A stretch of 64,000 nucleotides of DNA from positions 8,452-72,451 of the forward strand of contig ONQE01000001.1 in NCBI GenBank assembly GCA_900319925.1, read 5' to 3'. This stretch comes from an uncultured Bacteroidales bacterium (lineage in GTDB: Bacteria > Bacteroidota > Bacteroidia > Bacteroidales > WCHB1-69). Shown here in pieces: positions 3,309 to 54,245 of this stretch (within the stretch, counting starts at the first letter, position 1; every line of letters starts with the position of its first letter). The translations under genes were made by a program, and so were the position numbers. The notes beneath the pieces are model-generated. The model did not search any database and was not told the origin of the DNA. It was given only the letters and a program-made list of their open reading frames with translations.

Positions 3309-6025
3309 CTATTGCTGCATCGTCGTCGGCTGCATATCGACACGAGTGTAGATTTCGGGGTGGAAGTACTTTTTCATGAATTCGACCATCTCTTTCTTGG
3401 TAACCGAATTGACGATGTTGTCGTATTCGGAAGGCGCGATAATCGGCTCATCTTGGATAACCTTGCCGCTGATATAGCCTAACCAGAAGCTGTTGGATTG
3501 GATGTTCTTGGCATGGGTGCTGGTCATCTGCTTCTTGATGAGGGCCATGGTCTTATTGTCCGGACCCTTGGCCTTGAAGTCGTTCAAAATCTTGAGGCTG
3601 GCAGTAGCCAATTTGTCTGTCTTCACCGGGTCGCAACCTAAGAGAATCATCAGGGTTATTTCAGGACGAGGCAGTTTGCCGGCGCTCATACTTACCGTCG
3701 GGGAATAGACATCGCCCATCTTTTCACGCACAATCTTGACGAACAGGATGTCTAATGCCTCACCGATCATATCGGTGATGATGGCGTTGCGGTAGCTCCA
3801 GTCGATGGGGTTGGTGATGAACATGCCCATCCAGCCCTGTTCCTCGGTACCGGCATAAACGGTTTGCGTAGAGGCCTTGTCGGGACGCGGTTTCAGTACG
3901 TTGAGGTTGTAGTTCTCTTTCTTACCGGATTCGGTCTTCAGGGAACCGAGATAGAGTTCCACAAATTGTTTCATCTCCGTCTCATCGTAGTTGCCCACGA
4001 AAAAGAAGGTAAAGTCAGCGGGATTGGCGAAACGCTCCTTGTAGATCTGCACGGCGCGATCGAAGTCAGTCTGTTTCAGATATTCCTCATCGTAAGAGAA
4101 GAACTGTTTCATATAGGGGTCGTTATTGTTAGCGGCTTCAACCAACTGGCCCAAGAACTGGTACATCGGTTGTGCTTGGAGCATCTTGATGCCCTCGCGG
4201 CTCTCGTCCATCATCAATTCGAAAGCGTTGGTGTCGATGCGCGGATTGGAGAAGAAAGCGTTAAGATATTGGAAGAAGAGATCCAGGTCTTTCGGGGAAG
4301 AAGAACCGTTGAAACCTTCTGACAACAGTTTGATTTCAGGATAAAGGCTTACGTTTTTGCCCTTCATCTTCTTCGACAGGGAGTTGTAATCCAGACCGGC
4401 TATACCGCCATGGTTGATAATGTCGCAAGCGAAATCAGCGGAAGCCAGATCTTTCACGGGATAGAGCGTTTTGCCGCCCTTGCTGATGGCGGTAAACAGA
4501 ATCTCATCGTTCTTATAGTCGGTTTTCTTCAGATAGACAGTGATGCCGTTAGAGAGCGTCCATTTCTCGGCACCTACGGTCTCGATTGTCTCCACATTTG
4601 TGATTTTGCCGGGCTTCAGTGTCTCCTTTTCGAGGATTTCTTGATCCTTATAGGTATCCACATAAGGTTGTACATTAGTTAAAGACTTGTCTTTCAATAT
4701 AGAAAGGATCTCGTCCTTGCCGGGAACGGTGACGCCTTCTTTGTCTGGGGCGGTGACAACGGCCACCATATTATCTTCCGTCACCCAATTCTTGGCCAAT
4801 GCATTGATTTCCTCCAAGGTAATATCTCCCATCAGCTTTTTGGCGTAATTGTTCTCACGTTTTGCACCCGGGATGGGGTCTTGATGCAGGAAGTTGTTGA
4901 CGTATTCGGAGGCGAAACTGGCAGATTCGGTCTTGTCAGCCTCCTTGGCCGCCTTGTCGTAGAGCTCCAGGAGTTCCTCTTTGGCACGATCGAGTTCGGT
5001 CTGCAGGAAACCGTATTTCAGCACGCGGTAGTCCTCTTGCAGGAGCGCGCGCAGCGCATCGGGAATGCGGTTTTCCTTAGCTATGGCTTCCAAAGCGTAA
5101 GCATCGGTGTTACCGTAAAAGTTGCCATATCCGCCGTTGGCACCCATGAACGGGCACTTCGGGTCCTGGGTCATTTCCGTAAAGCGGGCATCCAGCATGG
5201 TGTTATAGAGGTCGATGCAGAGTTGGTCGCGGAAGTCGCCGATGGTCTTCATCGCGGTGTGTTTGTGCTTGCGGATGAGCTGCCGAACATAGCTTTGATT
5301 TTGCCTTCCACTTCCGCCACGTTGATATCACCTACCACAATCACCGCCTGTAGGTCTGGACGATACCAATCGTTGTAAAAGTCCTTGATGACTTGGTAGT
5401 CAAAGGTTTGCAGAATGTCAAGCTTACCGATGGGCATACGGTCGGCGTAGCGGGAACCTTGCATCAGGATCGGCCAATACTCCTTGCGCATACGGTCCAC
5501 GGCACCGAGACCGAGGCGGTGTTCCTCGATAATGACACCGCGCTCCTCGTCAATTTCTTTGTTGTCGAAGAGCAGACAGGCAGCCCAGCCTCTCATGATT
5601 TTGAGGCCGAGGTCAATGTTGGTAGGATCGTCCGTCGGCATGGGAATCATATAGACCGTCTCGTCGAAGTAGGTGTTGGCGTTGAGGTCGGCACCGAACA
5701 CCACGCCCTTGCTGCGCAAGTGATCCACCACGCTATTGCCAGGGAAACCCTCGATGCCGTTGAAGGCCATGTGCTCGGTGAAGTGCGCCAGACCCTGCTG
5801 GTTATCGTTCTCCTGGTTGGAGCCGACATTCACCGCGAGACGGAACTCCACACGATTCTTCGGGTAGGTGTTCTTGCGGATATAATAGGTCAGACCGTTG
5901 TCCAATTTGCCGATGACCACGTTGGGGTCGGCCTTGATGGGATCGTTCAGGTTCAGGTCACCCTTCTGCGCGAAAACGGCCAACGCACAGATCATCGCCA
6001 TCATAAACAAAAATACTTTCTTCAT
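3309..6025 (-). pseudogene. M16 family zinc peptidase (pitrilysin-like), split into two ORFs
   Basis: ORF 5249-6025 (258 aa) has a signal peptide and the HxxEH motif (HFTEH). ORF 3309-5252 (647 aa) continues the M16 fold in a different frame. The frames meet near 5250-5290. Confidence 0.7.
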
Positions 6026-11282: not shown

Positions 11283-12590
11283 TTATTCGGTGGCGGGTGA
11301 TTCGGGGTCGGGTGATTCGACATCGGGTGATTCGGGGTCGGGAGGCTCGGGGTTTTGGATGCCGTCGAGGATGTTGAGCATCTGGTCGCTGCGGCCGGCG
11401 TGGGCTTTGTTGTAGAGGTTGCTGAGGAAGACGATGACGACGTTGTCGGAGGGGCGGTAGAGGAACAGGTTCTGGAAGCCGTTCCAGAGGCCGCCGTGGT
11501 AGACCAGCTTGCCGTGCGTGGGACTCTCCTCGATGCGGTAGCCGTAGCCGTAGATGCTGGCCGGGAGTTTGCCGCCGTTCAGCTGGTTCTCGCGCTGCGA
11601 GGCGAGGTCCACCCACTCTTTCGGCAGGATTTTGTAGTCGATGAACATGGCGTTGGCCCAGCGGAGCATATCCTCCGCGTTAGAGTAGATGCCCTTGTCG
11701 CCGAGCACCCCGTTGAGCCGGTCGTATCTCGCGACAACGCCTCCCCTGCGGTGTCCGATGGCAATCGGTATATCCGACGGCAGTGCTTTCACACTCACAT
11801 CTTCCGCTTTCGGGTCCACATCGGCGTACTTCCTGCCGTGTTTGGCATCGATGCCCACGATTTCGGTGAAGAAGCAGGTGGCGTCCATCCCGGCAGGTTT
11901 GAAAATGTTCTCGTGCACATACTCTTCGAAGGGCATCCCGGAGACCTGCGCCACCAACGCCGCCAGAATCGCATAGTTGGTGTTCACATACTCGAACTTG
12001 GTACCCGTGGCGAAGGTCTTGGCATACTTCTGTTTCTCCAAAACCCGCAACAGATGCTCGTTATCCACGAACGCCGCCCCGCCATAGACCGTGTATTTGA
12101 ACTTGAAATATTCGGGGATGCCGGAGGTATGGGTCAGCAGATGCCGAATGGTGACACCGCGATAGGGAAGATTCGGGAAATAGTGCGTGATGGTGTCTTC
12201 CAAGTTGATTTTCCCCTGCGCGCAGAGCTGCAGCACCGCCACCGCGGTGAATTGCTTGGAGATGGAGGCCAAATCGAAGAGGGTGTTTTCCGTTATCTGG
12301 TTGTTCTCGGGAACATCGCGACGAGGCGGCTCACCGGTCAGGCGGAGTTCCCCGTAGGCATACTCGACCAGCACGGTGTCGCGCACTGCCACGAGCATCA
12401 CCCCATTGAGTTTTTCCGACATCTCGTTGGCCACAAATTCCAGCCCCTCAATGTCGTAACGGTCGCCGATGGTGTCCAACAGGTGTTGCCGGTAGCGCTC
12501 TTCCGTGAAAAAAGCCGTGTAGGTGTCCGCCTTGAGATTCACGACGAAGCACATAAACACGGCTATCGGGAACAAAAACTTCTTTAACAT
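11283..12590 (-). CDS. Serine hydrolase of the beta-lactamase (class C/PBP-like) family with a repeat-encoded acidic Pro-rich tail
   Basis: 435 aa. Signal peptide, SxxK motif (SISK) and YxN motif (YVN). The C-terminus PDPESPDVESPDPESPATE is encoded by a 15-bp tandem repeat. Confidence 0.8.
   Translation of the reverse strand: MLKKFLFPIAVFMCFVVNLKADTYTAFFTEERYRQHLLDTIGDRYDIEGLEFVANEMSEKLNGVMLVAVRDTVLVEYAYGELRLTGEPPRRDVPENNQITENTLFDLASISKQFTAVAVLQLCAQGKINLEDTITHYFPNLPYRGVTIRHLLTHTSGIPEYFKFKYTVYGGAAFVDNEHLLRVLEKQKYAKTFATGTKFEYVNTNYAILAALVAQVSGMPFEEYVHENIFKPAGMDATCFFTEIVGIDAKHGRKYADVDPKAEDVSVKALPSDIPIAIGHRRGGVVARYDRLNGVLGDKGIYSNAEDMLRWANAMFIDYKILPKEWVDLASQRENQLNGGKLPASIYGYGYRIEESPTHGKLVYHGGLWNGFQNLFLYRPSDNVVIVFLSNLYNKAHAGRSDQMLNILDGIQNPEPPDPESPDVESPDPESPATE
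11295..11354. repeat. 15-bp tandem repeat, 4 units (GGGTGATTCGGGGTC-like), inside a CDS
   Basis: Hand-parsed units at 11295, 11310, 11325 and 11340. Confidence 0.8.
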
Positions 12591-12603
12591 ATCGTAGTCA
12601 ATC

Positions 12604-12636
12604 TTCGACTTTGACGTTGACCTTTGACTTTGAACC
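12604..12636. repeat. Tandem array with 6-7 bp period (GACTTT GACGTT GACCTTT GACTTT GAACC), family F-like
   Basis: Read in the minus sense as AAGTCAA AGGTCAA CGTCAA AGTCGAA. It ends 14 nt upstream of the start at 12590. Confidence 0.6.
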
Positions 12637-12655
12637 TAATAAAGTACTACCCCAA

Positions 12656-12690
12656 TAACTGCTAACTACTAACTACTAACTGCTAACTAA
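12656..12690. repeat. Heptamer array, family A in reverse orientation (TAACTGC TAACTAC x2 TAACTGC TAACTAA)
   Basis: Five units ending 2 nt from the rho stop codon. Read in the rho sense it is AGTTAGC/AGTTAGT. Confidence 0.85.
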
Positions 12691-12692
12691 AA

Positions 12693-14606
<1,914 letters not shown>

Positions 14607-14710
14607 TTTTTGATGATAAAACTTGCATTGGATTTTTCGCCACGGCACGGAAGGCAATCGACTGCCGACCCTGTTTTGCCCGTCGCGGAGCATCTGTTTG
14701 AATTGCGCTG

Positions 14711-14718: not shown

Positions 14719-14806
14719 CAATATTTTTCGAAATACCAACACTTGTGGGAATTTTTTTATTTCACAACCCTATATCCCTGCCCATACATTTCAAGAAAAC
14801 AACCCC

Positions 14807-14883
14807 CTTAACTCTCAACCCTTAAACCTTAAACCTTAACCCATAACCCTTAACCCATAACCCTTAAACCTTAAACCTTAACC
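14807..14883. repeat. Heptamer array, family B (CTTAAAC/CTTAACC/CATAACC), 11 units
   Basis: Hand-parsed with perfect 7-nt phasing. Lies in the divergent rho/T9SS-gene promoter region. Confidence 0.9.
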
Positions 14884-14952
14884 CAAAATTATCAACATTT
14901 CACTATTAAGAATTTTTATGAAAAAAATTTGCCGAGGTTATGATAAAAACAG

Positions 14953-15008: not shown

Positions 15009-16223
15009 ATGAAAAAACTTTACATGCTCATCATGGTTGCCTTAATTGCTGCAACCGCAAACGCGCAGGTCGTCAAAATGGAGGTCGGTGCGAATCAGGA
15101 TCGTCAACTGCCCATCAAGGGCATTGTGAAAGCTGATAAGAGTGCCCCTGCAGAGGGTTGGCTTTTCTATCAGGACTATCTGGAGTCTTACTTTGGTGAG
15201 ACTTGTAACGATGGCAGCGCCTTCTATTTGAAGAGCGACTCCCTGGGTCTTTACGAGTACAGCGACGGCGATTTCGACCACGCTTTCGTCTATTCTGTCA
15301 GCCAGACTTACGATTTCGAATCCGACTTCTTCGAGTATGCATCTATGAGCGGCGATATCTCTTTCAAGTACAGCCCCTCTTTGAATGTTGACTCCGCCTG
15401 CGTTTACACGATGTATCTTCGTGACGAGCAGATGCCCGCCGATGTGATGGATACGCTCGTCATCGGTTTCGTCGCTGACGATGATGCCCCTGCTTATTAC
15501 TACACATCCTATCCGGAAAGCAGCTGCTTCATCAACTTTGACTGGGATCCCAACACCGGTGTTCAGCAGAATGCCCAGGTTGTCAAGATTCCCCTTGGCC
15601 CCAACGATGTCAGCGAGCCTGCTACTGAGCCCAATTCCTATTATCTGAAATTATTCGAGGTTCCGTTGAACATCACCAATGTGACCGACAAACGTTGGAA
15701 CATCGCCTATACCTTCATTTCCGGTGAGAATCCCGCTTTGAACGACACCCTTCATTCCTCTTTCTCCCTCTACACCTTCAACAGCAATGACAACGAAGGC
15801 TACTCTCCCGCTTCCAACAACCCGAACATTTGCAACAACAGAAGCCACGGCGGTATGGTGCGTTCTTTCAGCAACGGTGATGTTGACTACTACTATCCCA
15901 TGTTCTTCTTTGACAACTACAACTTCCCGAAGAATCTGGGTCTGAAGATTTCCTGCACCAACTGTGAAATCGTGAATGTCCCCGAGCTGGAGAAGAACAA
16001 CCCGACCGTCTATCCAAATCCTGCCACCAACAACTTCACTGTCAACCTCGGCAATGACGAGAAGGCTAACATCGAGCTCTTCAACATCGTTGGCCAAATG
16101 GTGTACAGCGAGACCATCACCGGCAGCGCCCAAGTGAACGTCGCCAACCTCCACAGCGGTGTTTATATGCTCAAGGTGAACCAAAACGGCAAGGCCTACA
16201 CCACCAAAGTGGTTGTGAAATAA
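15009..16223 (+). CDS. T9SS-sorted secreted protein of unknown function
   Basis: 404 aa. Signal peptide and a C-terminal Por secretion tail (VYPNPATNNFTV...GVYMLKVNQNGKAYTTKVVVK). Confidence 0.8.
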   Translation: MKKLYMLIMVALIAATANAQVVKMEVGANQDRQLPIKGIVKADKSAPAEGWLFYQDYLESYFGETCNDGSAFYLKSDSLGLYEYSDGDFDHAFVYSVSQTYDFESDFFEYASMSGDISFKYSPSLNVDSACVYTMYLRDEQMPADVMDTLVIGFVADDDAPAYYYTSYPESSCFINFDWDPNTGVQQNAQVVKIPLGPNDVSEPATEPNSYYLKLFEVPLNITNVTDKRWNIAYTFISGENPALNDTLHSSFSLYTFNSNDNEGYSPASNNPNICNNRSHGGMVRSFSNGDVDYYYPMFFFDNYNFPKNLGLKISCTNCEIVNVPELEKNNPTVYPNPATNNFTVNLGNDEKANIELFNIVGQMVYSETITGSAQVNVANLHSGVYMLKVNQNGKAYTTKVVVK

Positions 16224-16246
16224 TTTTGTCTGATACAATATTCTAT

Positions 16247-16280
16247 AAAAAAGGGATGGTCGAGAGACTGTCCCTTTTTT
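16247..16280 (+). terminator. Intrinsic terminator
   Basis: AAAAAAGGGA...TCCCTTTTTT stem ending in a T-run, 24 nt after the stop codon. Confidence 0.65.
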
Positions 16281-16329
16281 AGTTAGCAGTTAGTAGTTAG
16301 CAGTTAGCAGTTAGTAGTTAGTAGTTATA
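16281..16329. repeat. Heptamer array, family A (AGTTAGC/AGTTAGT), 7 units
   Basis: Hand-parsed. Starts immediately after the terminator T-run. Confidence 0.9.
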
Positions 16330-16344
16330 CACTAGCGAGAAACC

Positions 16345-16445
16345 CCATAACCCATAAGCCATAAGCCATAACCCATAACCCATAAGCCATAAACCATAAA
16401 CCTTAACCCATAAACCATAACCCTTAAACCTTAAACCTTAAACCA
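16345..16445. repeat. Heptamer array, family B (CCATAAC/CCATAAG/CCATAAA/CCTTAAC/CCTTAAA), 14 units plus a partial unit
   Basis: Hand-parsed. The last partial unit (CCA) directly abuts the folP ATG at 16446. Confidence 0.9.
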
Positions 16446-17258
16446 ATGTACAAACTATCAGCCAACGCGCCTTTAATTATGGGCATCCTGAATGTGACGG
16501 AAGACTCGTTCTATGACGGGGGCCGCTATACGTCGGAGGAGGCGGTGCGGAGGCGTGCGGCGCAGATTCTGGCGGAGGGCGGCGACATCATCGACATCGG
16601 GGCGATGTCCACACGCCCGGACGCCATGGAAATCCCCGAAGAGGAGGAGAAGACGAGGATTGTGCAGGCGGTGCGGTGCATTCGCGAAGATTTCCCCGAT
16701 GCCGTCCTTTCCGTGGACACCTACCGCGCCAACGTGGCCGAGGCGGCCGTGGAGGCAGGTGCCGACATCATCAACGACATCTCCGGCGGCACCTTCGACC
16801 CCGAGATGATTCCCACCATCGGCCGACTGCAGGTACCCTACGTGCTGATGCACACGCCCGCAAAACCGGCTGAGATGCAGCAACATACGGAATACAACGA
16901 CCTTCTCGGCGAGATGCTGCAGTTTTTCGGGAAACAGATCGCCCTTCTGCATCGGCACGCCGTCCACGACATCATCCTCGACCCCGGCTTCGGTTTCGGC
17001 AAGACCCTCGAACAGAACTACTTCCTGATGAAGAATCTGGAAGTGTTCTCGGAACTCGGATACCCGTTGCTGGTCGGTATCTCCCGCAAATCGATGATCT
17101 ACAAACTGTTGGGGACCACTCCGGAACACGCTCTCAACGGCACCACCGTCCTCAACACCGTCGCCCTGATGAAAGGGGCAAACATTCTGCGCGTCCACGA
17201 TGTGCGTGAGGCGGTCGAAGTGCGAAAAATATTATCTTTGCCGAAAAAATCAAAATGA
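16446..17258 (+). CDS. folP: Dihydropteroate synthase
   Basis: 270 aa. IMGILNVTEDSFYDGGRY plus DIGAMSTRP and GISRKS motifs. Confidence 0.9.
   Translation: MYKLSANAPLIMGILNVTEDSFYDGGRYTSEEAVRRRAAQILAEGGDIIDIGAMSTRPDAMEIPEEEEKTRIVQAVRCIREDFPDAVLSVDTYRANVAEAAVEAGADIINDISGGTFDPEMIPTIGRLQVPYVLMHTPAKPAEMQQHTEYNDLLGEMLQFFGKQIALLHRHAVHDIILDPGFGFGKTLEQNYFLMKNLEVFSELGYPLLVGISRKSMIYKLLGTTPEHALNGTTVLNTVALMKGANILRVHDVREAVEVRKILSLPKKSK
17233..17240 (+). promoter_or_regulatory. -7 promoter box inside the folP 3' end
   Basis: TATCTTTG, 14 nt upstream of the ATG at 17255. Confidence 0.35.
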
Positions 17259-18229: not shown

Positions 18230-19555
18230 ATGCTTGCGCGATTTCTCCAGGAACTTCAACGTCTGGCGGGAGCTGACGCCCTGCGGAAATGCTACCTCGT
18301 GGCGGTGAGCGGCGGTGCGGATTCGACCGTCGCGGCTACACTCTTCCATGAGGCTGGACTGCATTTCGCGATGGCGCACTGCAACTTCCACCTGCGCGGC
18401 GCCGACTCCGACCGTGACATGCGATTCGTGCAGGAGATGGCCGAACGCTGGAATGTACCGCTCCTCGTCCGCGAGTTCGACACCTTCTCCGTACAGCGGG
18501 ACTCTGGGAAATCCATCGAGATGGTGGCCCGCGAGCTGCGATACGACTGGTTCTCGGAGATCTTGTCCGGCTACGACCACCTCGTGACCGCCCACCACGC
18601 CACCGACGCCGCCGAAACCCAACTACTCAACCTCACCCGCGGCACCGGACTGAGAGGGCTTTGCGGCATCCCGTCCGTGAACGGGAAAACCATCCGCCCG
18701 ATGCTGTCCTTCACGGCACAGGAAATCCGCCAATACGCTGAGGATCATCATATTGCATACGTTGAAGATTACACCAACCGCGACGAGCATATCGCCCGCA
18801 ACCGCATTCGCCACTCCGTCATTCCGCAATTGGAGGCGATCAATCCGCAGTTCCTACAGACCAACACGCGCACACGTCAAGTTCTGCAACGGCAATACGA
18901 ATATTATCAGAAACATATAGCGGCCGAGATACGGAATATCACCAGCAAAGAGGGTCGGCAGCTTCGCATTGACCGCCAGAAGCTGGCCCACAATGAGGAT
19001 AAAACCTTGATACTCTACGAAATACTGAACGAATACGGTTTCACCGCCGATGCTGTGGAGAAAATTGCGGCCAACGACCAGATGCCCGTAGGCAGATATT
19101 TTTCTTCCGATTCTCACAGATTGCTGATTGACAGGGAATTCTTGATTCTTCAACCTCAATTGGAAGAAAAGGAGCATATCCCGATTGAAATAGGCTCATT
19201 GGAAGACCTGAAAGCTTATTTTCAAGTTGAAGAATTTGATTATCAAGAGGGTATGGTCTTCGATAAAAACCCGAAGATCCTTTATATTCCGAAAGACAAG
19301 TTGACCTTCCCGCTGGAAATCCGGTCCTGGCAGCACGGCGACTCCTTCCACCCTCTTGGCGGAAAAGGCCGCCAGAAAGTCAGCGACTTTTTCACCGACC
19401 ATAAGATAGACCGCTTCGCCAAAGAACGCATCCGTCTTCTTTGTTCAGGCGACAACATACTATGGATCATCGATTTACGTTCCGATGAACGATTCAAAGT
19501 GACACCCAAAACCGAAAGGTACTACCGGTTAAGTCCATTGGCTGTTGGCCATTAA
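18230..19555 (+). CDS. tilS: tRNA(Ile)-lysidine synthetase
   Basis: 441 aa with the PP-loop SGGADSTV. Confidence 0.85.
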   Translation: MLARFLQELQRLAGADALRKCYLVAVSGGADSTVAATLFHEAGLHFAMAHCNFHLRGADSDRDMRFVQEMAERWNVPLLVREFDTFSVQRDSGKSIEMVARELRYDWFSEILSGYDHLVTAHHATDAAETQLLNLTRGTGLRGLCGIPSVNGKTIRPMLSFTAQEIRQYAEDHHIAYVEDYTNRDEHIARNRIRHSVIPQLEAINPQFLQTNTRTRQVLQRQYEYYQKHIAAEIRNITSKEGRQLRIDRQKLAHNEDKTLILYEILNEYGFTADAVEKIAANDQMPVGRYFSSDSHRLLIDREFLILQPQLEEKEHIPIEIGSLEDLKAYFQVEEFDYQEGMVFDKNPKILYIPKDKLTFPLEIRSWQHGDSFHPLGGKGRQKVSDFFTDHKIDRFAKERIRLLCSGDNILWIIDLRSDERFKVTPKTERYYRLSPLAVGH

Positions 19556-19579
19556 ACCTTAAACCCTAAACCTTAAACT
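19552..19579. repeat. Heptamer array, family B (TTAAACC x2, CTAAACC, TTAAACT)
   Basis: Four units. The tilS stop (19553-19555) lies inside unit 1, and the array ends 2 nt before the sufS ATG. Confidence 0.85.
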
Positions 19580-19581
19580 GA

Positions 19582-20784
19582 ATGAATAGAAACGATTTTC
19601 CCATATTGAATGAAAAGGTGTACGGCAAAACCCTCGTCTATTTAGACAATGCCGCCACCACGCAGAAGCCGCAAGTGGTGATTGACGCGCTGAGCGACTA
19701 CTACCGGCGCATCAACAGCAACATCCATCGCGGCGTGCACTGTCTCAGCCAGTTGGCGACCAACGAGTTCGAGCAGGCGCGCGAGGCGGTGCGGCAGTAC
19801 ATCCACGCAGCCTCGACACAGGAGGTCATTTTCACGCGCGGCGCGACCGAGTCCATCAATTTGGTGGCAGCCTCCTTCGGGCGCACCTACCTGCACGCGG
19901 GCGACGAGGTCATCGTTTCCGAAATGGAGCACCACTCGAACATCGTGCCGTGGGAGTTGGCCTGCGAGGACCGCGGCGCGACGTTGAAAGTGCTGCCGTT
20001 CAACGATAAAGGGGAGCTGATGCTCCGGGAATTGGAGACCCTGATAACCGAGCGCACCAAGATTGTGGCCGTGGCGCACGTCTCCAACTCGTTGGGCACC
20101 GTCAACCCGATTGAGGAGGTCATCCGCATCGCGCACAGCCACAATGTACCCGTCCTTATCGACGGAGCGCAGGCCGTAGCGCACTGTCCTGTGGATGTGC
20201 AGGCCCTCGACTGCGACTTCTACTGTTTCTCCGGCCACAAGATGTACGCCCCGATGGGTATCGGCGTAATGTACGGCAAAGCGCAGTGGCTCAACGAGAT
20301 GCAACCGTATCAAGGGGGTGGTGAGATGATCAAGGACGTCACCTTCGAGAAGACGACCTACAACGAGCTGCCCTACAAATTCGAGGCGGGCACCCCGTCG
20401 GTGGGCGATGTCATCGGGCTGCGCAAGGCCATCGAATACATCGGGGGCATCGGGCTGGCAAACATTGCTGCCCACGAGCAGGAGCTGTTGGCATACACCA
20501 CGGAGAAGCTGGCGAGAATCGACGGGATGCGCTTTATCGGCGAGGCGTCGCACAAAACGGGGGTCATCTCGTTCCTCGTGGGCGACACCCATCCCTACGA
20601 TATGGGCGTACTCCTTGACCATCAAGGTATTGCAGTTCGCACGGGACATCATTGCACCCAACCGGTGATGACCCATTTCGGTATTCCCGGCACCATCCGC
20701 GCCTCCTTTGCCCTTTACAACACCTTTGAGGAGGCGGATGCGCTCGTGGATGCGGTCGTGAAAGCGAAAAATATGCTTTCTTGA
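19582..20784 (+). CDS. sufS: Cysteine desulfurase, SufS family
   Basis: 400 aa. PLP-lysine context FSGHKMYAP and active-site RTGHHCTQP. Confidence 0.85.
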   Translation: MNRNDFPILNEKVYGKTLVYLDNAATTQKPQVVIDALSDYYRRINSNIHRGVHCLSQLATNEFEQAREAVRQYIHAASTQEVIFTRGATESINLVAASFGRTYLHAGDEVIVSEMEHHSNIVPWELACEDRGATLKVLPFNDKGELMLRELETLITERTKIVAVAHVSNSLGTVNPIEEVIRIAHSHNVPVLIDGAQAVAHCPVDVQALDCDFYCFSGHKMYAPMGIGVMYGKAQWLNEMQPYQGGGEMIKDVTFEKTTYNELPYKFEAGTPSVGDVIGLRKAIEYIGGIGLANIAAHEQELLAYTTEKLARIDGMRFIGEASHKTGVISFLVGDTHPYDMGVLLDHQGIAVRTGHHCTQPVMTHFGIPGTIRASFALYNTFEEADALVDAVVKAKNMLS

Positions 20785-20837
20785 TTAGTGATTAGTGATT
20801 AGTGATTGGTGATTTGTGACTTGTGATTTGTGATGAA
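20782..20837. repeat. Heptamer array, family C (TGATTAG x3, TGATTGG, TGATTTG, TGACTTG, TGATTTG, TGATGAA)
   Basis: Eight units. The first TGA is the sufS stop codon, and the last units contain the GTG/ATG start of the next gene. Confidence 0.9.
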
Positions 20838-23973: not shown

Positions 23974-24663
23974 ATGAGACTTATTAACAACATCTTATCT
24001 CTGTTTTACCCGAGGCTGTGCGCGGCTTGTGGTGATGCGTTGCAGCAGAATGAATCCTGTATCTGTCTGGATTGCATGCTGCATCTTCCTGAGACGCAAT
24101 TTCACAAAGAGCACTTCAATCCATTGCGGAGCGTGTTCGACGGGCGCGTGCCCGTGGAGGAGGTCTCTGCGCTGATGAGCTACAAGAAGGCGAACCGCAC
24201 GCAGAAAATCCTCCACAACCTGAAGTACAAGGGGCAGAAGGAGATCGGGGCGGTATTGGGCGAATACTTTGGCGGTCAGCTGATTACAGAGGAGCGATGG
24301 CGTGGCGTCCAGTACATACTCCCGATTCCGTTACATCCGAAGAAGCAGCGTAAAAGGGGGTACAACCAGAGCGAGTGGATTGCGATGGGGCTCTCCAAGG
24401 GGATGGGCATCCCCTACCTCACGGATGTGCTGGTGCGCACGGAGTTCACGGAGACGCAGACCCGGAAGAACCGGTTCGCGCGGTGGCAGAATGTGAAGGA
24501 GGTTTTTGCCGTGCAACATCCTGAGAAGGTGGAACATACGCATGTGTTGGTCTGCGACGATGTGCTCACGACCGGCGCCACCACGGAGGCGGCCATCCGC
24601 AAATTGCTGGAGGTTCCGGGGGTGCGGGTCAGCGTGGCGACCTTGGCGGCCACGACGCTATAG
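23974..24663 (+). CDS. comF: ComF family phosphoribosyltransferase-like protein
   Basis: 229 aa. N-terminal Cys pairs (CAACGD, CLDC) and a PRTase motif VLVCDDVLTTGAT. Confidence 0.75.
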   Translation: MRLINNILSLFYPRLCAACGDALQQNESCICLDCMLHLPETQFHKEHFNPLRSVFDGRVPVEEVSALMSYKKANRTQKILHNLKYKGQKEIGAVLGEYFGGQLITEERWRGVQYILPIPLHPKKQRKRGYNQSEWIAMGLSKGMGIPYLTDVLVRTEFTETQTRKNRFARWQNVKEVFAVQHPEKVEHTHVLVCDDVLTTGATTEAAIRKLLEVPGVRVSVATLAATTL

Positions 24664-24700: not shown

Positions 24701-24860
24701 CTCTAACTCTTGTTCAACTCTTGTTCAACTCTGGTCTAACTCCGATGTAACTCCGATGTAACTCCGATACAACTCCGATCAAACTCCGATATAACTCCGA
24801 TACAACTCCGATCAAACTCCGATCAACTCCGATCAAACTCCGATCAACTCCGATACAGCT
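24701..24860. repeat. 11-bp tandem array (CCGATNNAACT type), about 15 units
   Basis: Hand-parsed. Three leading CTTGTTCAACT/CTGGTCTAACT units are followed by CCGAT(GT/AC/CA/AT)AACT units. Two units are 10 bp. Confidence 0.9.
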
Positions 24861-24930: not shown

Positions 24931-24938
24931 TACTTTTG
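24931..24938 (+). promoter_or_regulatory. -7 promoter box
   Basis: TACTTTTG, 4 nt before the ATG at 24943 and about 200 nt before the ATG at 25146. Confidence 0.5.
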
Positions 24939-24942
24939 CCGT

Positions 24943-25146
24943 ATGAAAAAGAGACTGAAACTTGGACTTATTGTTTGCGTATTATTGTGTATATCAACAT
25001 CTTGCGCAAGAAAGATCAGCGGTGCCACCCCGCACCGTCGCGACCGCAACTGCGGCTGCGAGAACCTTTACCCAATGTACAATTTACAATGTACAATGTA
25101 CAATTTACAATGTACCAATCACTATTCACTAATCACCAATCACTAA
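24943..25146 (+). CDS. Possible small lipoprotein-like upstream ORF (67 aa)
   Basis: MKKRLKLGLIVCVLLCISTSC looks like a signal peptide with a lipobox-like end. The C-terminal third is encoded by heptamer arrays. Its stop overlaps the next ATG (TAATG). Nearly leaderless relative to the promoter box, so coding status is uncertain. Confidence 0.25.
   Translation: MKKRLKLGLIVCVLLCISTSCARKISGATPHRRDRNCGCENLYPMYNLQCTMYNLQCTNHYSLITNH
25074..25115. repeat. Heptamer array, family D (AATGTAC/AATTTAC), 6 units
   Basis: Hand-parsed. Confidence 0.9.
25117..25144. repeat. Heptamer array, family C in reverse orientation (AATCACT ATTCACT AATCACC AATCACT)
   Basis: Four units running into the ATG at 25146. 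Confidence 0.85.
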
Positions 25147-28897: not shown

Positions 28898-29047
28898 AAG
28901 GATTTACTCAATCCACGAGAAACGAGAATCCACCACAACCCTTTCCCTGTTCTGCATCTCCAAAACTGCCTCGCCTCCGGCACATACCTCGTGAAGATCA
29001 ACTTCGAGCGAGGGGTGAGCGTGGTGAGGAAGGCGGTGCGGAGTTAG
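28898..29047 (+). pseudogene. Orphan 3' fragment of a T9SS C-terminal sorting domain
   Basis: The frame ends ...LHLQNCLASGTYLVKINFERGVSVVRKAVRS*, which is the terminal strand pattern of a Por secretion tail. There is no upstream gene body. Confidence 0.45.
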
Positions 29048-29076
29048 CAGTTAGCAGTTAGTAGTTAGCAGTTGGT
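29042..29076. repeat. Heptamer array, family A (AGTTAGC x2, AGTTAGT, AGTTAGC, AGTTGGT)
   Basis: Five units. The stop codon of the CTD fragment lies in unit 1. Confidence 0.85.
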
Positions 29077-49285: not shown

Positions 49286-51163
49286 ATGAGGGACTGTTAC
49301 GATATCATAGTGGTGGGTGCAGGTCATGCGGGATGCGAGGCCGCCGTTGTTTCGGCCAAGCTTGGGAACAGTGTTCTTCTCATTACGATGAACCTTGCCC
49401 TCGTGGCGCAGATGTCGTGCAACCCGGCTATTGGAGGTATCGCCAAAGGACAAATTGTTCGCGAAATAGATGCGTTGGGTGGTATGACGGGTATTGTGAC
49501 CGACCATACCATGATCCAGTACCGAATGCTCAACCGTTCGAAGGGACCCGCTATGTGGAGTCCGAGGGCACAGTGCGACAAAACAGCCTTTTCCTTGTAT
49601 TGGAAACATATTCTTGAAAATACTCCTAATCTCCATCTTCGTCAAGATACCGTGACCGAATTGTTATTTGATGCGGATAGGGTCATTGGCGTCAAGACGC
49701 AATTGGGTAAGACTGTTCTCTCAAAGAAAGTCATTCTCACTAACGGTACTTTTTTGAACGGACGTATTCATGTCGGGGAGGTTAATTTTTCCGGCGGTAG
49801 GATAGGGGAGAGTGCTTCTTTCATTTTGTCCGACCAATTGAAAGAGCGTGGCATCGTTACGAAAAAACTCAAAACCGGAACCCCTGTCCGAATTGATGGA
49901 CGGACTGTCGATTTCTCCAAAATGGAAGAACAACCCGGTGAAAACCCTCCGGGACGTTTTTCGTTCACCAATACCCCTCCTCTTCACCGGCAGCTCAGTT
50001 GCTGGATTACCTATACCAACGAGCAAGTACACCAAGTACTCCAAAAGGGTTTCGAAAAGTCCCCTATGTTCCAGGGACGCATCCAAGGTGTGGGTCCCCG
50101 TTATTGTCCGTCCATAGAAGATAAAATCGTTCGTTTCGCTGACCGTACACGTCACCAACTCTTTCTTGAACCGGAGGGACGCAATACAAATGAATATTAC
50201 CTCAACGGTTTTTCCTCCTCTCTTCCTGAAGATATTCAGGTGGAGGCCCTCCATCTGATTCCTGGATTGGAACAAGCCGAGATATACCGTCCGGGTTATG
50301 CCATCGAGTATGACTATTTCGACCCGATGCAGTTGCGTTATACGCTTGAATCGAAAATTATCGGAAACCTTTATCTTGCCGGACAGGTGAACGGAACCAC
50401 CGGTTATGAGGAGGCGGCGTGTCAAGGACTCATGGCAGGCATCAACGCACATCTCTCCCTTGCCGAAAAAGATCCTTTGATTTTGACCCGTTCACAGGCT
50501 TACATCGGTGTGCTCATTGACGATCTGATTACGAAAGGTGTCCAGGATCCCTATCGCATGTTCACTTCGCGAGCTGAATACCGCATTTTGTTGCGACAGG
50601 ACAATGCCGACCAAAGGCTTACTCCGATAGGCAATCAGTTGGGTCTGATTGATGCGGAACGCTATGAGGAATTTCTCCACAAATACGATCTGCAGACGCA
50701 AATCACCGACTACCTTCGAAGCCATACTACCCACTTTCAAACGCTCAATGAGCTGCTCGTTAAACGGGAAACTTCTCCCTTGAATCAAAATGTCAAATTG
50801 GAAAATGTATTGCTCCGTCCCCAAATCTCCATTCAGGATCTGATGGATTATGATCGTGAGTTTGCCTATTTCCTGCAACAGATTGGTGCCGATTCAGAAC
50901 AGATTACCAACGCCGAAACGAGTATAAAATACAGCAGCTATATTCAGAAGGAGGAAGAAATGGTGCAACATCTCACCAATCTCGATGCTATTAAGCTGCC
51001 TCTCGATTTGGATTATCCAAACATCAATTCTTTGTCGAAAGAGGCGCGTGAAAAGCTGTCCAAACTCCAACCCGCAAATCTGGGGCAAGCCTCTCGCGTC
51101 AGTGGTGTGAGTCCAGCCGATATTACCGCACTGATGATTTATCTTAGGACTTGTGATTTGTGA
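49286..51163 (+). CDS. mnmG: tRNA uridine 5-carboxymethylaminomethyl modification enzyme MnmG (GidA)
   Basis: 625 aa. FAD motif [12 protein letters not shown]. The last codons and the stop lie inside a heptamer array. Confidence 0.95.
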
Positions 51164-51313
51164 TTTGTGATTAGTGAGGTGTGATTTGTGATTTGTGAAT
51201 TGTGATTTGTGATTTGTGAATTGTGATTTGTGATTAGTGAGGTGTGATTAGTGAGGTGTGATTAGTGAGGTGTGATTAGTGAGGTGTGATTAGTGAGGTG
51301 TGATTAGTGGTAG
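51153..51313. repeat. Heptamer array, family C (GTGATTT/GTGATTA/GTGAGGT/GTGAATT), 23 units
   Basis: Hand-parsed and contains no C at all. It ends in six copies of the 14-mer GTGATTAGTGAGGT. The mnmG stop (51161-51163) is inside unit 2. Confidence 0.9.
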
Positions 51314-54211: not shown

Positions 54212-54245
54212 CCGCCAAAAACTGATATAATTGATTGATTCCGTT

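What the first reader, a model, noticed from the sequence alone, without database searches (positions are those of the whole stretch)
16281..16445. Two heptamer families arranged as a 3' module and a 5' module fill the spacer up to the folP start codon
After the T9SS gene stop the order is: terminator hairpin, 7 units of family A (16281-16329), a 15-nt unique linker, then 14 units of family B (16345-16442) plus a partial unit CCA ending at the folP ATG. About 98 nt immediately upstream of folP are therefore pure repeat, made only of C, A and T apart from four G residues. This is the clearest case that family A trails genes and family B leads genes.
Basis: seen in the sequence. Interest (0 to 1): 0.7.

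Follow-up and report, generated by a model that had tools for sequence, protein, structure and literature searches.

The report
Hypermutable heptamer repeats upstream of folP
The spacer before folP really is filled by two runs of 7-base tandem repeats, but these are fast-changing, slippage-prone simple repeats of a kind already described in other bacteria, here unusually dense in a group of uncultured rumen Bacteroidales, and relatives do without them at this gene.

Summary
A conserved terminator hairpin is followed by (AGTTAGY)x7, a 15-nt linker and (CCWTAAN)x14.4, which ends at the folP ATG.

Period-7 arrays are about 100-fold above chance in the window. They are 7-8 times denser in this rumen Bacteroidales clade than in more distant relatives, and almost all are intergenic.

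Near-identical strains differ only by whole units: A has 7 or 5 copies, B has 14, 19 or 6. In related species the same spacer holds other heptamers, unrelated inserts or nothing.

"A trails, B leads" is a tendency, not a family rule. G/T-rich arrays sit next to stop codons and A/C-rich arrays next to start codons. Paired arrays always run G/T-rich then A/C-rich (24:0). The same rule was published for heptamer repeats in Xanthomonas and Nostoc.

Array B gives folP a leader with almost no G and no predicted structure, which suits Shine-Dalgarno-independent initiation in Bacteroidia.

Most likely these are near-neutral slippage repeats, filtered by what a start region tolerates. They are a new member of a known kind. 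One oddity remains: the "unique" linker recurs after A arrays in unrelated spacers.

The parts
15009..16223 (+). Upstream gene: T9SS-secreted cargo protein with a C-terminal sorting domain
   Evidence: Pfam Por_Secre_tail, E 3.2e-16. The same gene end (…KVVVK*) precedes folP in L001-L017, L021 and L025.
16221..16228 (+). TAATTTTG, which matches the Bacteroidetes -7 promoter box TAnnTTTG and overlaps the stop codon (speculative promoter)
   Evidence: The motif is enriched in the window (51 against 32.6 expected) and usually sits 20-55 nt before starts. It is present in about 10 of 19 relatives. No transcript data.
16246..16281 (+). Intrinsic-terminator-type hairpin: A-run, 16-bp stem including A:U pairs, T-run
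   Evidence: dG -21.7 kcal/mol, z -6.4. It is conserved in relatives with compensatory stem changes.
16281..16329 (+). Array A: (AGTTAGY)x7, G/T-rich on the sense strand
   Evidence: Copy number is 7 here and 5 in L081-L084 and L191.
16330..16344 (+). Linker CACTAGCGAGAAACC. The core CACTRGCGAGAAAC recurs after A arrays in other spacers.
   Evidence: Exact motif after (AGTTAGY)n in L122 (two spacers), L187, L191 and L081-84. L122 and L187 share no other similarity with the window.
16345..16445 (+). Array B: (CCATAAN/CCTTAAN)x14.4, A/C-rich with 3 G, ending at the folP ATG
   Evidence: RNA minimum free energy is 0 kcal/mol. Copy number is 14.4 here, 19.4 in L081-84 and 6.4 in L191.
16446..17258 (+). 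folP (dihydropteroate synthase)
   Evidence: Pfam Pterin_bind, E 1.2e-72.
12603..12688 (-). Same two-part layout on the minus strand. The rho stop is followed by (AGTTAGY)x4.7 at 12656-12688, then the linker GGGGTAGTACTTT at 12641-12653, then a (TCAAAG/GTCAAAG) array at 12603-12633, then the ATG of the beta-lactamase-family gene at 12590.
   Evidence: L191 has +7 nt in the second array.
14805..14884 (+). B-type array (CCCTTAA/CCTTAAA/CCCATAA) in the divergent rho / T9SS-cargo spacer, upstream of both TAnnTTTG boxes (14711 minus strand, 14953 plus strand)
   Evidence: Close strains have +21 and about +28 nt here.
19550..19578 (+). B-type array (CCTTAAA)x4 filling the 26-nt tilS / cysteine-desulfurase spacer and overlapping the tilS stop
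20778..20834 (+). Array C (TGATTAG/TGATTTG)x8, G/T-rich, running from the stop of the desulfurase gene to the ATG of the SDR gene
25073..25143 (+). Arrays (CAATGTA)x5.5 and (AATCACY)x4 abutting the ATG at 25146 of a lipoprotein gene
29040..29073 (+). Array A (AGTTAGY)x4.6 starting at the stop codon of a T9SS-CTD gene fragment
51144..51309 (+). Long array C (GTGATTT/GTGATTA/GTGAGGT) starting at the stop of gene 49286-51163

Best explanation
The two arrays are long heptanucleotide simple-sequence repeats. They are generated and resized by slipped-strand mispairing in 7-nt steps. They belong to a lineage-wide burst of such repeats in a clade of uncultured rumen Bacteroidales.

They are probably near-neutral filler of non-coding DNA rather than dedicated regulatory modules. 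Copy number drifts between strains, unit sequence turns over between species, and relatives manage folP without them.

Their orientation is not free. Next to a start codon, mostly arrays whose sense strand is A/C-rich and nearly free of G persist. Such RNA cannot fold and carries no spurious AUG, GUG or UUG. That fits Bacteroidia, whose ribosomes ignore Shine-Dalgarno sequences and whose initiation is tuned by mRNA structure.

In this species array B therefore acts as a completely unstructured, SD-free leader or intercistronic spacer for folP. Array A is the G/T-rich array that, by the general rule for heptamer repeats, sits on the stop/terminator side. It has no demonstrated role.

Shown: the repeat nature, excess over chance, clade specificity, unit-step polymorphism, turnover, the position/strand bias, and the lack of predicted structure.

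Inferred: the slippage mechanism, transcription of the arrays as part of the folP mRNA, and selection on leader quality.
For: - **Period specificity.** Period-7 arrays reach 9.1 nt/kb in the window and 11.4 nt/kb in L001-L016. They reach 1.3-1.6 nt/kb in more distant Bacteroidota. Other periods are not enriched (simulation).
- **Location.** 3 of 64 clade arrays lie inside a long open frame, and two of those are the leader arrays at 25073-25143; only 56750-56781 sits in a confirmed coding region.
- **Unit-step polymorphism.** Strains at about 98.6% identity over 6.8 kb, with identical FolP, differ from the window by +21, -14 and +35 nt exactly in three arrays. L191 differs by +7, about +28, -14 and -56 nt.
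- **Turnover.** The folP spacer of 16 related species keeps the gene end and hairpin. After that it carries TCGCAAA, CAATAAC, GCCAACA, ACTATAA or TTAGCYN arrays, or unrelated inserts. L017, L021 and L025 have short spacers without arrays.
- **Structure.** B-array RNA has a minimum free energy of 0. The folP -50..+30 region folds at -0.3 kcal/mol, the least structured of 45 genes in the window (median -8.8).
- **Position bias.** Start-adjacent arrays are A/C-rich 13 times and G/T-rich 3 times.
- **Background composition.** Leaders in this genome are generally A-rich and G-poor.
- **Literature.** Bacteroidetes lack SD use; initiation depends on mRNA structure, and AUG is depleted near starts (PMC6847099). 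Heptamers are the commonest long SSR class in prokaryotes, and polymerase slippage was proposed as the cause (Mrazek 2007, as summarised in PMC4679880). The same position/strand rule and the same length variation between close relatives were reported for GGGAATC/GGGGAYT repeats, with no function found (PMC4692102).
Against: - An unstructured folP start region is not conserved. The -50..+30 energy ranges from 0 to -27.7 kcal/mol among relatives. In L004, L012, L007 and L009 the two arrays pair into long hairpins. The leader-quality argument therefore explains orientation, not presence.
- G/T-rich arrays do abut some starts (20778-20834; L003 10818; L008 12272).
- The "G/T-rich after stop" half of the rule is not explained by this model.
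- Non-array intergenic DNA shows no such composition bias.
- Neutral slippage does not explain why only period 7 expands, nor why only in this clade.
- The same 14-nt linker follows A arrays in unrelated spacers. That implies copying between loci or a functional motif, which simple in-situ slippage does not predict.
- Copy numbers come from short-read metagenome assemblies. Two Logan contigs break inside array B.
- No transcript or expression data exist.
Confidence: 0.55

Rival explanations
1. Expression tuning knobs. The arrays are selected because slippage changes leader length or hairpin geometry, giving heritable and reversible changes in expression of the neighbouring gene. The model is the (ATCTTTC)n repeat in the hmw1A 5'UTR of Haemophilus influenzae.
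For: - Unit-step alleles occur among close strains: B has 6, 14 or 19 copies and A has 5 or 7.
- The arrays abut start codons.
- In relatives the two arrays form long 5'-leader hairpins (L004 -29.9 kcal/mol, z -6; L012 -36.2, z -4.4). This resembles the hmw1A hairpin that RNase III processes (PMC12721329).
Against: - The genes involved are housekeeping genes (folP, rho, tilS, cysteine desulfurase, SDR), not surface or contingency genes.
- In the window species B is unpaired, so adding units changes only the length of an unstructured leader.
- Arrays also lie upstream of promoters and after terminal stops (14805, 51144).
- Four independent assemblies share one allele, so switching is not very fast.
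Confidence: 0.15
2. Binding sites for a sequence-specific RNA- or DNA-binding protein. This would be a post-transcriptional regulon of the kind proposed for TAACTGA repeats, with S1, Csp, CsrA or RRM-type proteins as candidates.
For: - The complement of A (TAACTGC/TAACTAC) is one mismatch from TAACTGA, which sits directly upstream of start codons in Beggiatoaceae, cyanobacteria and some Bacteroidetes (PMC4679880).
- (AGTTAGY)n occurs in more than 120 metagenome contigs with GC from 0.28 to 0.69.
- Conserved linkers follow A arrays.
Against: - At least a dozen unrelated heptamer units behave alike in the same genomes.
- The unit at one orthologous spacer is replaced between species.
- Copy number is unconstrained.
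- No control heptamer was scanned, so the breadth of A's distribution has no baseline.
Confidence: 0.08
3. Polar transcription elements acting through Rho. C-rich, G-poor, unstructured arrays such as B would be Rho-loading (rut-like) sites that couple transcription of the downstream gene to its translation. G-rich arrays after stops would be anti-rut spacers that prevent polarity.
For: - B is 101 nt with 35% C and 3% G, no predicted structure, and CC dinucleotides every 7 nt.
- Arrays are polarised with respect to gene ends.
- rho is encoded 1.5 kb away and is itself flanked by arrays.
Against: - A strong rut site directly in front of an essential gene would be costly.
- The same position rule holds in Nostoc (PMC4692102), and cyanobacteria lack Rho (my own knowledge).
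- The rule is symmetric with respect to ORF direction, which a transcription-direction mechanism does not readily give.
- No termination data exist.
Confidence: 0.07
4. A copied intergenic cassette. (AGTTAGY)n plus a conserved 3' flank, with or without a following A/C-rich array, spreads between spacers by gene conversion between arrays or by an unrecognised mobile mechanism. On this view arrays are inherited modules rather than being born in place.
For: - CACTGGCGAGAAAC follows A arrays in the folP spacer, in two different spacers of contig L122, and in L187.
- GGGGTAGTACTTT follows A in the rho-bla spacer (window, L006, L191) and in the folP spacer of L009.
- L122 and L187 have no other similarity to the window.
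- rc(A) is the commonest sequence just downstream of A, in at least 9 loci, and is never upstream.
Against: - No terminal inverted repeats, target duplications or transposase are present.
- There is no conserved 5' flank.
- Similarity stops after 14-17 nt.
- Only a handful of copies were seen, because only 64 kb of this genome is available.
- The idea explains origin, not function, and is compatible with the main explanation.
Confidence: 0.1
5. Assembly artefact: the arrays or their copy-number differences are produced by short-read assemblers.
For: Two Logan contigs end inside array B. The arrays approach read length.
Against: - The same arrays appear in the window and in at least 6 independent assemblies.
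- Four of those assemblies give an identical 5/19 allele with a distinctive internal order of unit variants.
- Arrays occur at the same spacers in 16 species-level genomes.
Confidence: 0.02

Closest known systems
Long simple sequence repeats of 5-11 nt in prokaryotes, with heptanucleotides the dominant class (Mrazek, Guo & Shah 2007, as summarised in PMC4679880)
   Same: - Tandem 7-nt units far longer than chance.
- Patchy lineage distribution.
- Intergenic location, because 7 is not a multiple of 3.
- Length changes by whole units, with polymerase slippage as the proposed cause.
   Different: - That survey did not cover rumen Bacteroidales.
- Here many unrelated A/T-rich units coexist and occupy about 9% of the non-coding DNA in the window.
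GGGAATC repeats of Xanthomonas and GGGGA(C/T)T repeats of Nostoc (Rehm et al. 2015, PMC4692102)
   Same: [quoted passage not shown]
- The G-rich strand lies close to the 5' neighbouring ORF whatever that ORF's direction. This means the coding strand just after, or overlapping, the stop codon, and the non-coding strand just before the start.
- Inverted pairs occur.
- Neighbouring genes are ordinary metabolic genes.
- Function is unknown.
   Different: - Those units are G-tract repeats that form G-quadruplexes, with a preferred copy number of 4.
- The units here have at most 2 G per 7 nt, cannot form G4, and reach 14-19 copies. The rule therefore does not depend on G4 potential.
TAACTGA direct repeats of marine Beggiatoaceae, some cyanobacteria and five Bacteroidetes (MacGregor 2015, PMC4679880)
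   Same: - Heptamer repeats immediately upstream of start codons where no Shine-Dalgarno sequence is present.
- Not predicted to fold.
- Indels in 7-nt steps between strains.
- Mixed with other heptamers in Bacteroidetes.
- A's complement differs from TAACTGA by one base.
   Different: - In Beggiatoaceae one unit dominates, with 2-6 copies.
- Here the TAACTGA-like unit is mostly in the opposite orientation, after stops, and the start-proximal arrays are other units.
(ATCTTTC)n 5'UTR repeat of Haemophilus influenzae hmw1A (PMC12721329)
   Same: A heptamer SSR between the promoter and the start codon, transcribed, variable in copy number, and forming a long leader hairpin with a partner region (as in relatives L004, L007, L009 and L012).
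   Different: - hmw1A is a phase-variable adhesin with a demonstrated dependence on copy number and RNase III.
- Here the gene is a housekeeping gene, no hairpin forms in the window species, and there are no expression data.
STRR heptamer repeats of heterocystous cyanobacteria (my own knowledge; Mazel et al. 1990)
   Same: Several families of tandem heptamers scattered through intergenic regions of one lineage, with function unknown.
   Different: Different units and a different phylum. No homology is implied.
G-poor, CA-rich translational leaders such as TMV omega and CA multimers (my own knowledge)
   Same: B works like these in composition: a long, G-deficient, unstructured leader made of short direct repeats next to the start codon.
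   Different: No evidence exists that B enhances translation, and there is no sequence relationship.

Membership tests
Heptanucleotide long simple sequence repeat (LSSR) | Head-to-tail copies of a 5-11 nt unit, significantly longer than the composition predicts | tested here: met
   TRF reports 6.7 and 14.4 copies. The window has 580 nt of period-7 arrays against a mean of 5.7 in Markov simulations.
Heptanucleotide long simple sequence repeat (LSSR) | Copy number changes by whole units between close relatives (slippage signature) | tested here: met
   Indels of -14, +35, +21, -56 and +7 nt are confined to arrays at 97-98.6% identity.
Heptanucleotide long simple sequence repeat (LSSR) | Excluded from coding sequence because the unit is not a multiple of 3 | tested here: met
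   3 of 64 clade arrays fall inside a long open frame, two of them the 25073-25143 leader arrays; only 56750-56781 is in a confirmed coding region.
G-rich heptamer repeats of Xanthomonas/Nostoc (PMC4692102) | The G-rich strand is proximal to the 5' neighbouring ORF: coding strand after the stop, non-coding strand before the start | tested here: met
   pairs 24:0; start-adjacent arrays A/C-rich 13:3; A arrays trail a stop 61:33, with 39/61 within 9 nt.
G-rich heptamer repeats of Xanthomonas/Nostoc (PMC4692102) | Unit with a G-tract able to form a G-quadruplex (GGGAATC / GGGGAYT), with a preferred copy number of 4 | tested here: not met
   The units AGTTAGY and CCWTAAN have no G-runs, and their copy numbers are 7 and 14.
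TAACTGA repeat system (PMC4679880) | Unit TAACTGA | tested here: not met
   A's complement is TAACTGC/TAACTAC (one mismatch). B is unrelated.
TAACTGA repeat system (PMC4679880) | Forward orientation within a few nt upstream of a start codon, in place of a ribosome-binding site | tested here: inconclusive
   B meets the positional feature because it ends at the ATG. At folP, A is in the reverse orientation and about 117 nt from the ATG. The TAACTRC orientation before starts occurs elsewhere (L007 6898).
Phase-variable contingency-locus SSR (hmw1A type) | Associated with surface, virulence or restriction-modification genes | tested here: not met
   The neighbours are folP, rho, tilS, a cysteine desulfurase and an SDR.
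Phase-variable contingency-locus SSR (hmw1A type) | Expression depends on repeat number | not testable with these tools
   No expression data are available.
Phase-variable contingency-locus SSR (hmw1A type) | The repeat forms a leader hairpin with a partner region | tested here: not met
   B is unpaired in the window species (minimum free energy 0). The feature is met in relatives L004, L007, L009 and L012.
Intrinsic (Rho-independent) terminator (16246-16281 only) | Stable GC-containing hairpin followed by a T-run | tested here: met
   dG -21.7 kcal/mol, z -6.4, followed by T6. It is conserved with compensatory changes. Actual termination was not tested.
Rho utilisation (rut) site | At least 70-80 nt of C-rich, G-poor, unstructured, untranslated RNA | tested here: met
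   The composition and lack of structure of B fit. This is a resemblance only.
Rho utilisation (rut) site | Rho-dependent termination downstream | not testable with these tools
   No transcript 3'-end or Rho-inhibition data are available.
Known structured RNA families (Rfam 15) | Match to a covariance model | tested here: not met
   No match in the spacer at E <= 1. In the whole window the only match is one tRNA. None in 7 related loci.
MITE / REP-type mobile intergenic element | Terminal inverted repeats, target-site duplication, and many dispersed near-identical copies | tested here: inconclusive
   No terminal inverted repeats or target duplications were seen. Only the array plus a 14-nt flank recurs, in 4 spacers. 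The whole genome is not available.

The most novel reading that the evidence does not exclude
The arrays are parts of a recurrent, polar intergenic cassette with this order: stop or terminator, (AGTTAGY)n, a conserved linker (CACTGGCGAGAAAC or GGGGTAGTACTTT), an A/C-rich heptamer array, then the ATG. The cassette would be copied between spacers and selected as a directional element. Its G/T-rich half would close off the upstream unit. Its A/C-rich half would provide an SD-independent ribosome landing pad whose length is reset by slippage. If so, the orientation rule shared with Xanthomonas and Nostoc would reflect a general, still unknown mechanism acting on heptamer repeats at gene boundaries.
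Probability: 0.15. Interest if true: 0.7.

Novelty: new member of a known kind. Interest (0 to 1): 0.35.

Why it matters
**What it adds**
- Heptamer tandem repeats are the commonest long simple repeat in bacteria, yet neither the preference for 7 nt nor their strict placement at gene boundaries has been explained.
- This clade shows that the published position/strand rule holds for A/T-rich units that cannot form G-quadruplexes. It also holds in a phylum that does not use Shine-Dalgarno sequences. That removes two of the explanations offered so far.
- The clade offers natural allelic series (6, 14 and 19 units in front of an essential gene) for testing whether such leaders affect expression.

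**Practical consequences**
- These arrays break short-read assemblies of rumen Bacteroidales.
- They extend spurious ORF calls.
- They could serve as strain markers.

**For folP itself** the finding is ordinary. The repeats are dispensable in relatives.

Tried and rejected
- **Known RNA element or riboswitch in the folP leader.** No Rfam match, even at E <= 1.
- **Sigma-70-type promoter or terminator scan.** Counts were no higher than in shuffles, and the scan missed the hairpin because of its internal A:U pairs.
- **A and B as degenerate inverted complements forming a hairpin.** Rejected for the window. The sense fold leaves B unpaired. The antisense fold is stable (-41 kcal/mol), but that stability is not significant (z -1.4) and comes mostly from G·U self-pairing of the B complement.
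- **Selection for sense-strand RNA hairpins in relatives (G·U against A·C asymmetry).** Sense and antisense energies show no consistent bias across 13 array pairs.
- **Arrays simply echoing local base composition.** Non-array DNA has A 36%, T 32%, C 17%, G 15% before starts and A 33%, T 30%, C 20%, G 17% after stops. There is no switch from G/T-rich to A/C-rich.
- **Stop codons in all three frames as the point of the arrays.** This holds for A, B and C units but not for TCGCAAA, GCCAACA or CAATGTA (by inspection).
- **Avoidance of upstream AUG as the sole orientation filter.** The CAATGTA array before ATG 25146 carries AUGs, and several complements lack NTG.
- **A conserved need for an unstructured folP start region.** Rejected. 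Relatives range from 0 to -27.7 kcal/mol.
- **Universality of the G/T-rich then A/C-rich order.** The opposite order exists in Mucilaginibacter loci L058 and L078.
- **Sigma-54-type reading of the linker TGGCGAGAAAC.** The spacing does not fit (by inspection).
- **Literature search for heptamer repeats in Bacteroides or Prevotella.** Nothing relevant was returned.
Full report
**Observation**

The sequence is as described.
- The T9SS-cargo gene (15009-16223; Por_Secre_tail) stops at 16223.
- A hairpin spans 16246-16281, with an A-run before it and a T-run after it. Its dG is -21.7 kcal/mol, with z = -6.4.
- Array A follows at 16281-16329, with seven units of AGTTAGC/AGTTAGT, the last degenerate.
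- A 15-nt linker, CACTAGCGAGAAACC, follows.
- Array B spans 16345-16445, with fourteen CCATAAN/CCTTAAN units plus CCA.
- The ATG of folP lies at 16446 (Pterin_bind, E 1e-72).
- Tandem Repeats Finder reports both arrays.
- B holds 3 G residues, not 4.

**Not chance; specific to period 7 and to one clade**

- The window holds 12 period-7 arrays (580 nt). Periods 8-10 have none, and second-order Markov simulations give a mean of 5.7 nt.
- Including one 6-mer and two 11-mer arrays, repeats make up 817 of 8,860 non-coding bases.
- FolP's closest relatives in one-genome-per-species contigs are uncultured rumen Bacteroidales MAGs, at most 84% identical.
- Period-7 density is 9.1 nt/kb in the window and 11.4 nt/kb in the 16 loci with FolP at least 74% identical; all 16 carry arrays. 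It is 1.3 nt/kb at 62-74% identity and 1.6 nt/kb in more distant Bacteroidota. No other period is enriched.
- Arrays are almost always intergenic.

**Context**

- No Rfam family matches the spacer, even at E <= 1.
- The Bacteroidetes -7 box TAnnTTTG is enriched in the window (51 against 32.6 expected). It typically lies 20-55 nt before start codons.
- The only copy near folP, TAATTTTG at 16221-16228, overlaps the cargo gene's stop codon and lies upstream of the hairpin.
- The hairpin is conserved in relatives, with compensatory stem changes.
- In L017 and L021 only about 20 nt separate the hairpin's T-run from the folP ATG. I infer that folP is transcribed through the hairpin and that anything inserted after it is part of the folP mRNA. 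This is not shown.

**Hypermutability**

- Contigs encoding a FolP identical to the window's (L081-L084, four assemblies) are about 98.6% identical over 6.8 kb.
- Apart from a 3-nt coding indel and 1 nt in the A-run, they differ only by +21 nt in array 14805, -14 nt in A and +35 nt in B.
- L191 is 97-98% identical. It differs by +7, about +28, -14 and -56 nt in the four arrays it shares with the window.
- B therefore has 14.4, 19.4 or 6.4 units, and A has 7, 5 or 5.
- Two Logan contigs end inside B, so short-read copy numbers need caution. Even so, four independent assemblies give the same allele.

**Orthologous spacers**

In 16 related species the cargo-gene end and the hairpin are kept, but what follows differs.
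- L006 has AGTTAGY followed by an unrelated insert; L009 has AGTTAGC, then ACTATAA, then CAATAAC.
- L007 and L012 have TTGGCAA/AGTTAGY, then GCCAACA/GCTAAAA.
- L004 and L014 have GATTTAC/GGTTTGC, then TCGCAAA.
- L001 and L003 have TTAGCYN, then AAAAGCA/AATAGCC.
- L005 and L011 have CAATAAC.
- L002, L006, L008 and L013 carry unrelated hairpin-bearing inserts.
- L017, L021 and L025 have short spacers without arrays.

The arrays are therefore dispensable for folP, and they turn over quickly.

**Position and strand rule**

I classed arrays as K (G/T-rich) or M (A/C-rich) on the sense strand of the nearest gene.
- Start-adjacent arrays (within 40 nt) are M 13 times and K 3 times.
- Stop-adjacent arrays are K 16 times and M 12 times. 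Many of those M arrays fill a short spacer and so also abut a start (Fisher p = 0.025).
- Adjacent array pairs always run K then M on the top strand. This property is unchanged by reverse complementation. The counts are 8/8 in the clade and 16/16 (plus 2 neutral) in metagenome loci.

A metagenome scan for four or more AGTTAGY units gave more than 120 contigs, with GC from 0.28 to 0.69. Among 124 arrays:
- the left neighbour is a gene that the array trails in sense orientation 61 times against 33 (p = 0.005);
- in co-directional spacers, sense outnumbers antisense 30 to 15;
- in 39 of the 61 trailing cases the array begins within 9 nt of the first base of the stop codon;
- the right-hand gene is typically about 66 nt away;
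- second arrays lie downstream 32 times (20 M, 5 K) and upstream 6 times.

The commonest downstream partner is the reverse complement of A. It is never found upstream.

The opposite order does occur in Mucilaginibacter loci. Gene calls here are heuristic (longest ORFs), and orthologous arrays are not independent, so the p-values are rough.

**Folding**

- B RNA has a minimum free energy of 0.
- The folP -50..+30 region folds at -0.3 kcal/mol. This is the least structured of 45 genes in the window, whose median is -8.8.
- Upstream regions in this genome are generally A-rich and G-poor.
- In relatives the K and M arrays pair into long hairpins: L004 -29.9 (z -6), L012 -36.2, L007 -32.5, L009 -34. 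Elsewhere the A/rc(A) pairs give -47 and -53 kcal/mol.
- FolP start-region energies among relatives range from 0 to -27.7 kcal/mol.
- Sense and antisense energies show no consistent bias.
- Absence of structure is therefore a property of this species' allele, not a conserved requirement.

**The linker is not unique**

- CACTGGCGAGAAAC directly follows (AGTTAGY)n in two different spacers of contig L122 and in L187. Neither contig is otherwise similar to the window.
- GGGGTAGTACTTT follows A behind rho (window 12641-12653 on the minus strand, L006, L191) and in the folP spacer of L009.
- Either an array plus its flank is copied between spacers, or the motifs are functional. I could not tell which.

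**Comparison with what is known**

- Heptanucleotides are the dominant long SSR class in prokaryotes, and slippage was proposed as the cause (Mrazek 2007, summarised in PMC4679880).
- TAACTGA repeats sit just upstream of SD-less start codons in Beggiatoaceae, cyanobacteria and five Bacteroidetes, with 7-nt indels between strains (PMC4679880). A's complement is one mismatch from that unit.
- Rehm et al. (PMC4692102) described the same rule as found here for GGGAATC/GGGGAYT repeats. The G-rich strand lies close to the 5' neighbouring ORF irrespective of its direction. [quoted passage not shown] They also reported length and sequence variation between close species, ordinary neighbouring genes and no function found.
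- The hmw1A (ATCTTTC)n leader repeat is the one experimentally dissected heptamer case (PMC12721329).
- Bacteroidetes do not use SD sequences. Initiation there is tuned by mRNA structure, and AUG is depleted near starts (PMC6847099).

**Mechanism**

Best supported: these are slippage-generated, near-neutral heptamer repeats. Their orientation next to start codons is filtered by what a Bacteroidia start region tolerates, namely G-poor, unstructured RNA free of AUG, GUG and UUG. B is an extreme example.

Unexplained by this model:
- why only period 7 expands;
- why only in this clade;
- why G/T-rich arrays sit at stops;
- why the linkers recur.

The rivals are listed with their tests: tuning knobs, a specific binding protein, Rho-linked polarity and a copied cassette. 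The Rho idea is weakened because the same rule holds in Rho-less cyanobacteria (my own knowledge) and because B itself is rut-like in front of an essential gene.

**Verdict**

- This is a new member of a known kind.
- Interest is modest. The useful points are that the rule extends to non-G4 units in an SD-independent phylum, and that natural allelic series exist for experiments.

Noticed in passing
window 56750-56781: A heptamer array, (ATGTACA)x4.3, lies inside the coding region of ORF 54231-56957, in its T9SS C-terminal sorting-domain part (…IDVQCTMNNVQLEG…). This is a rare in-gene array, where a one-unit slip would shift the frame.
   Followed up: partly
window 24702-24857: Two 11-nt tandem arrays, AACTCTTGTTC x2.5 and AACTCCGATAC x11, both A/C-rich. 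They lie after the stop of gene 23974-24663 and upstream of a TAnnTTTG box at 24931. They are the only non-heptamer long arrays in the window.
   Followed up: no
window 24943-25145: A 67-codon ORF with a lipoprotein-like signal peptide reads through the heptamer arrays at 25073-25143. It ends in TAATG, overlapping the ATG (25146) of the next lipoprotein gene. It could be a real upstream ORF or an accident of stop-free repeats.
   Followed up: no
window 12693-14693 (rho): Rho is 666 aa, with a long N-terminal extension that contains internal repeats (for example 13698-13746). Gene calls for the same gene in near-identical contigs give 608, 637 and 666 aa, which is 29-aa steps.
   Followed up: no
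window 16221-16228: TAATTTTG, a Bacteroidetes -7 promoter-box match, overlaps the stop codon of the T9SS-cargo gene and lies upstream of the terminator hairpin. It is kept in about 10 of 19 relatives. It could start a very short transcript or an attenuated folP leader.
   Followed up: partly
window 16330-16343 and 12641-12653; L122 (two spacers), L187, L009 5844, L006: Two short non-repeat motifs, CACTGGCGAGAAAC and GGGGTAGTACTTT, recur immediately 3' of (AGTTAGY)n arrays in unrelated intergenic spacers.
   Followed up: partly
L002 about 5720-5960; L006 about 5830-5970; L100 after its A array; L008 and L013 folP spacers: Other recurrent intergenic elements occur in the clade. One is an approximately 70-nt unit (…CCTTAAGCAGYCCCGAAGGGACAAGA…AACCCCACA…TGTGGGG), present as three tandem copies in L002. 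Another is a GTAGGGGCGAATAATYATTCGCCCCTAC hairpin. Neither matches Rfam.
   Followed up: partly
L087-L206 (metagenome contigs): (AGTTAGY)n arrays of four or more units occur in more than 120 contigs with GC from 0.28 to 0.69, from rumen, soil, freshwater, marine and termite-gut samples. They often overlap a stop codon and are often followed by their own reverse complement, giving hairpins of -47 to -53 kcal/mol. No control heptamer was scanned.
   Followed up: partly
window 15033-15929 compared with L191: The T9SS-cargo gene upstream of folP is much more divergent between close strains than its neighbours. It has many in-frame indels and about 87% identity, against 97-98% in the flanking genes.
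   Followed up: no
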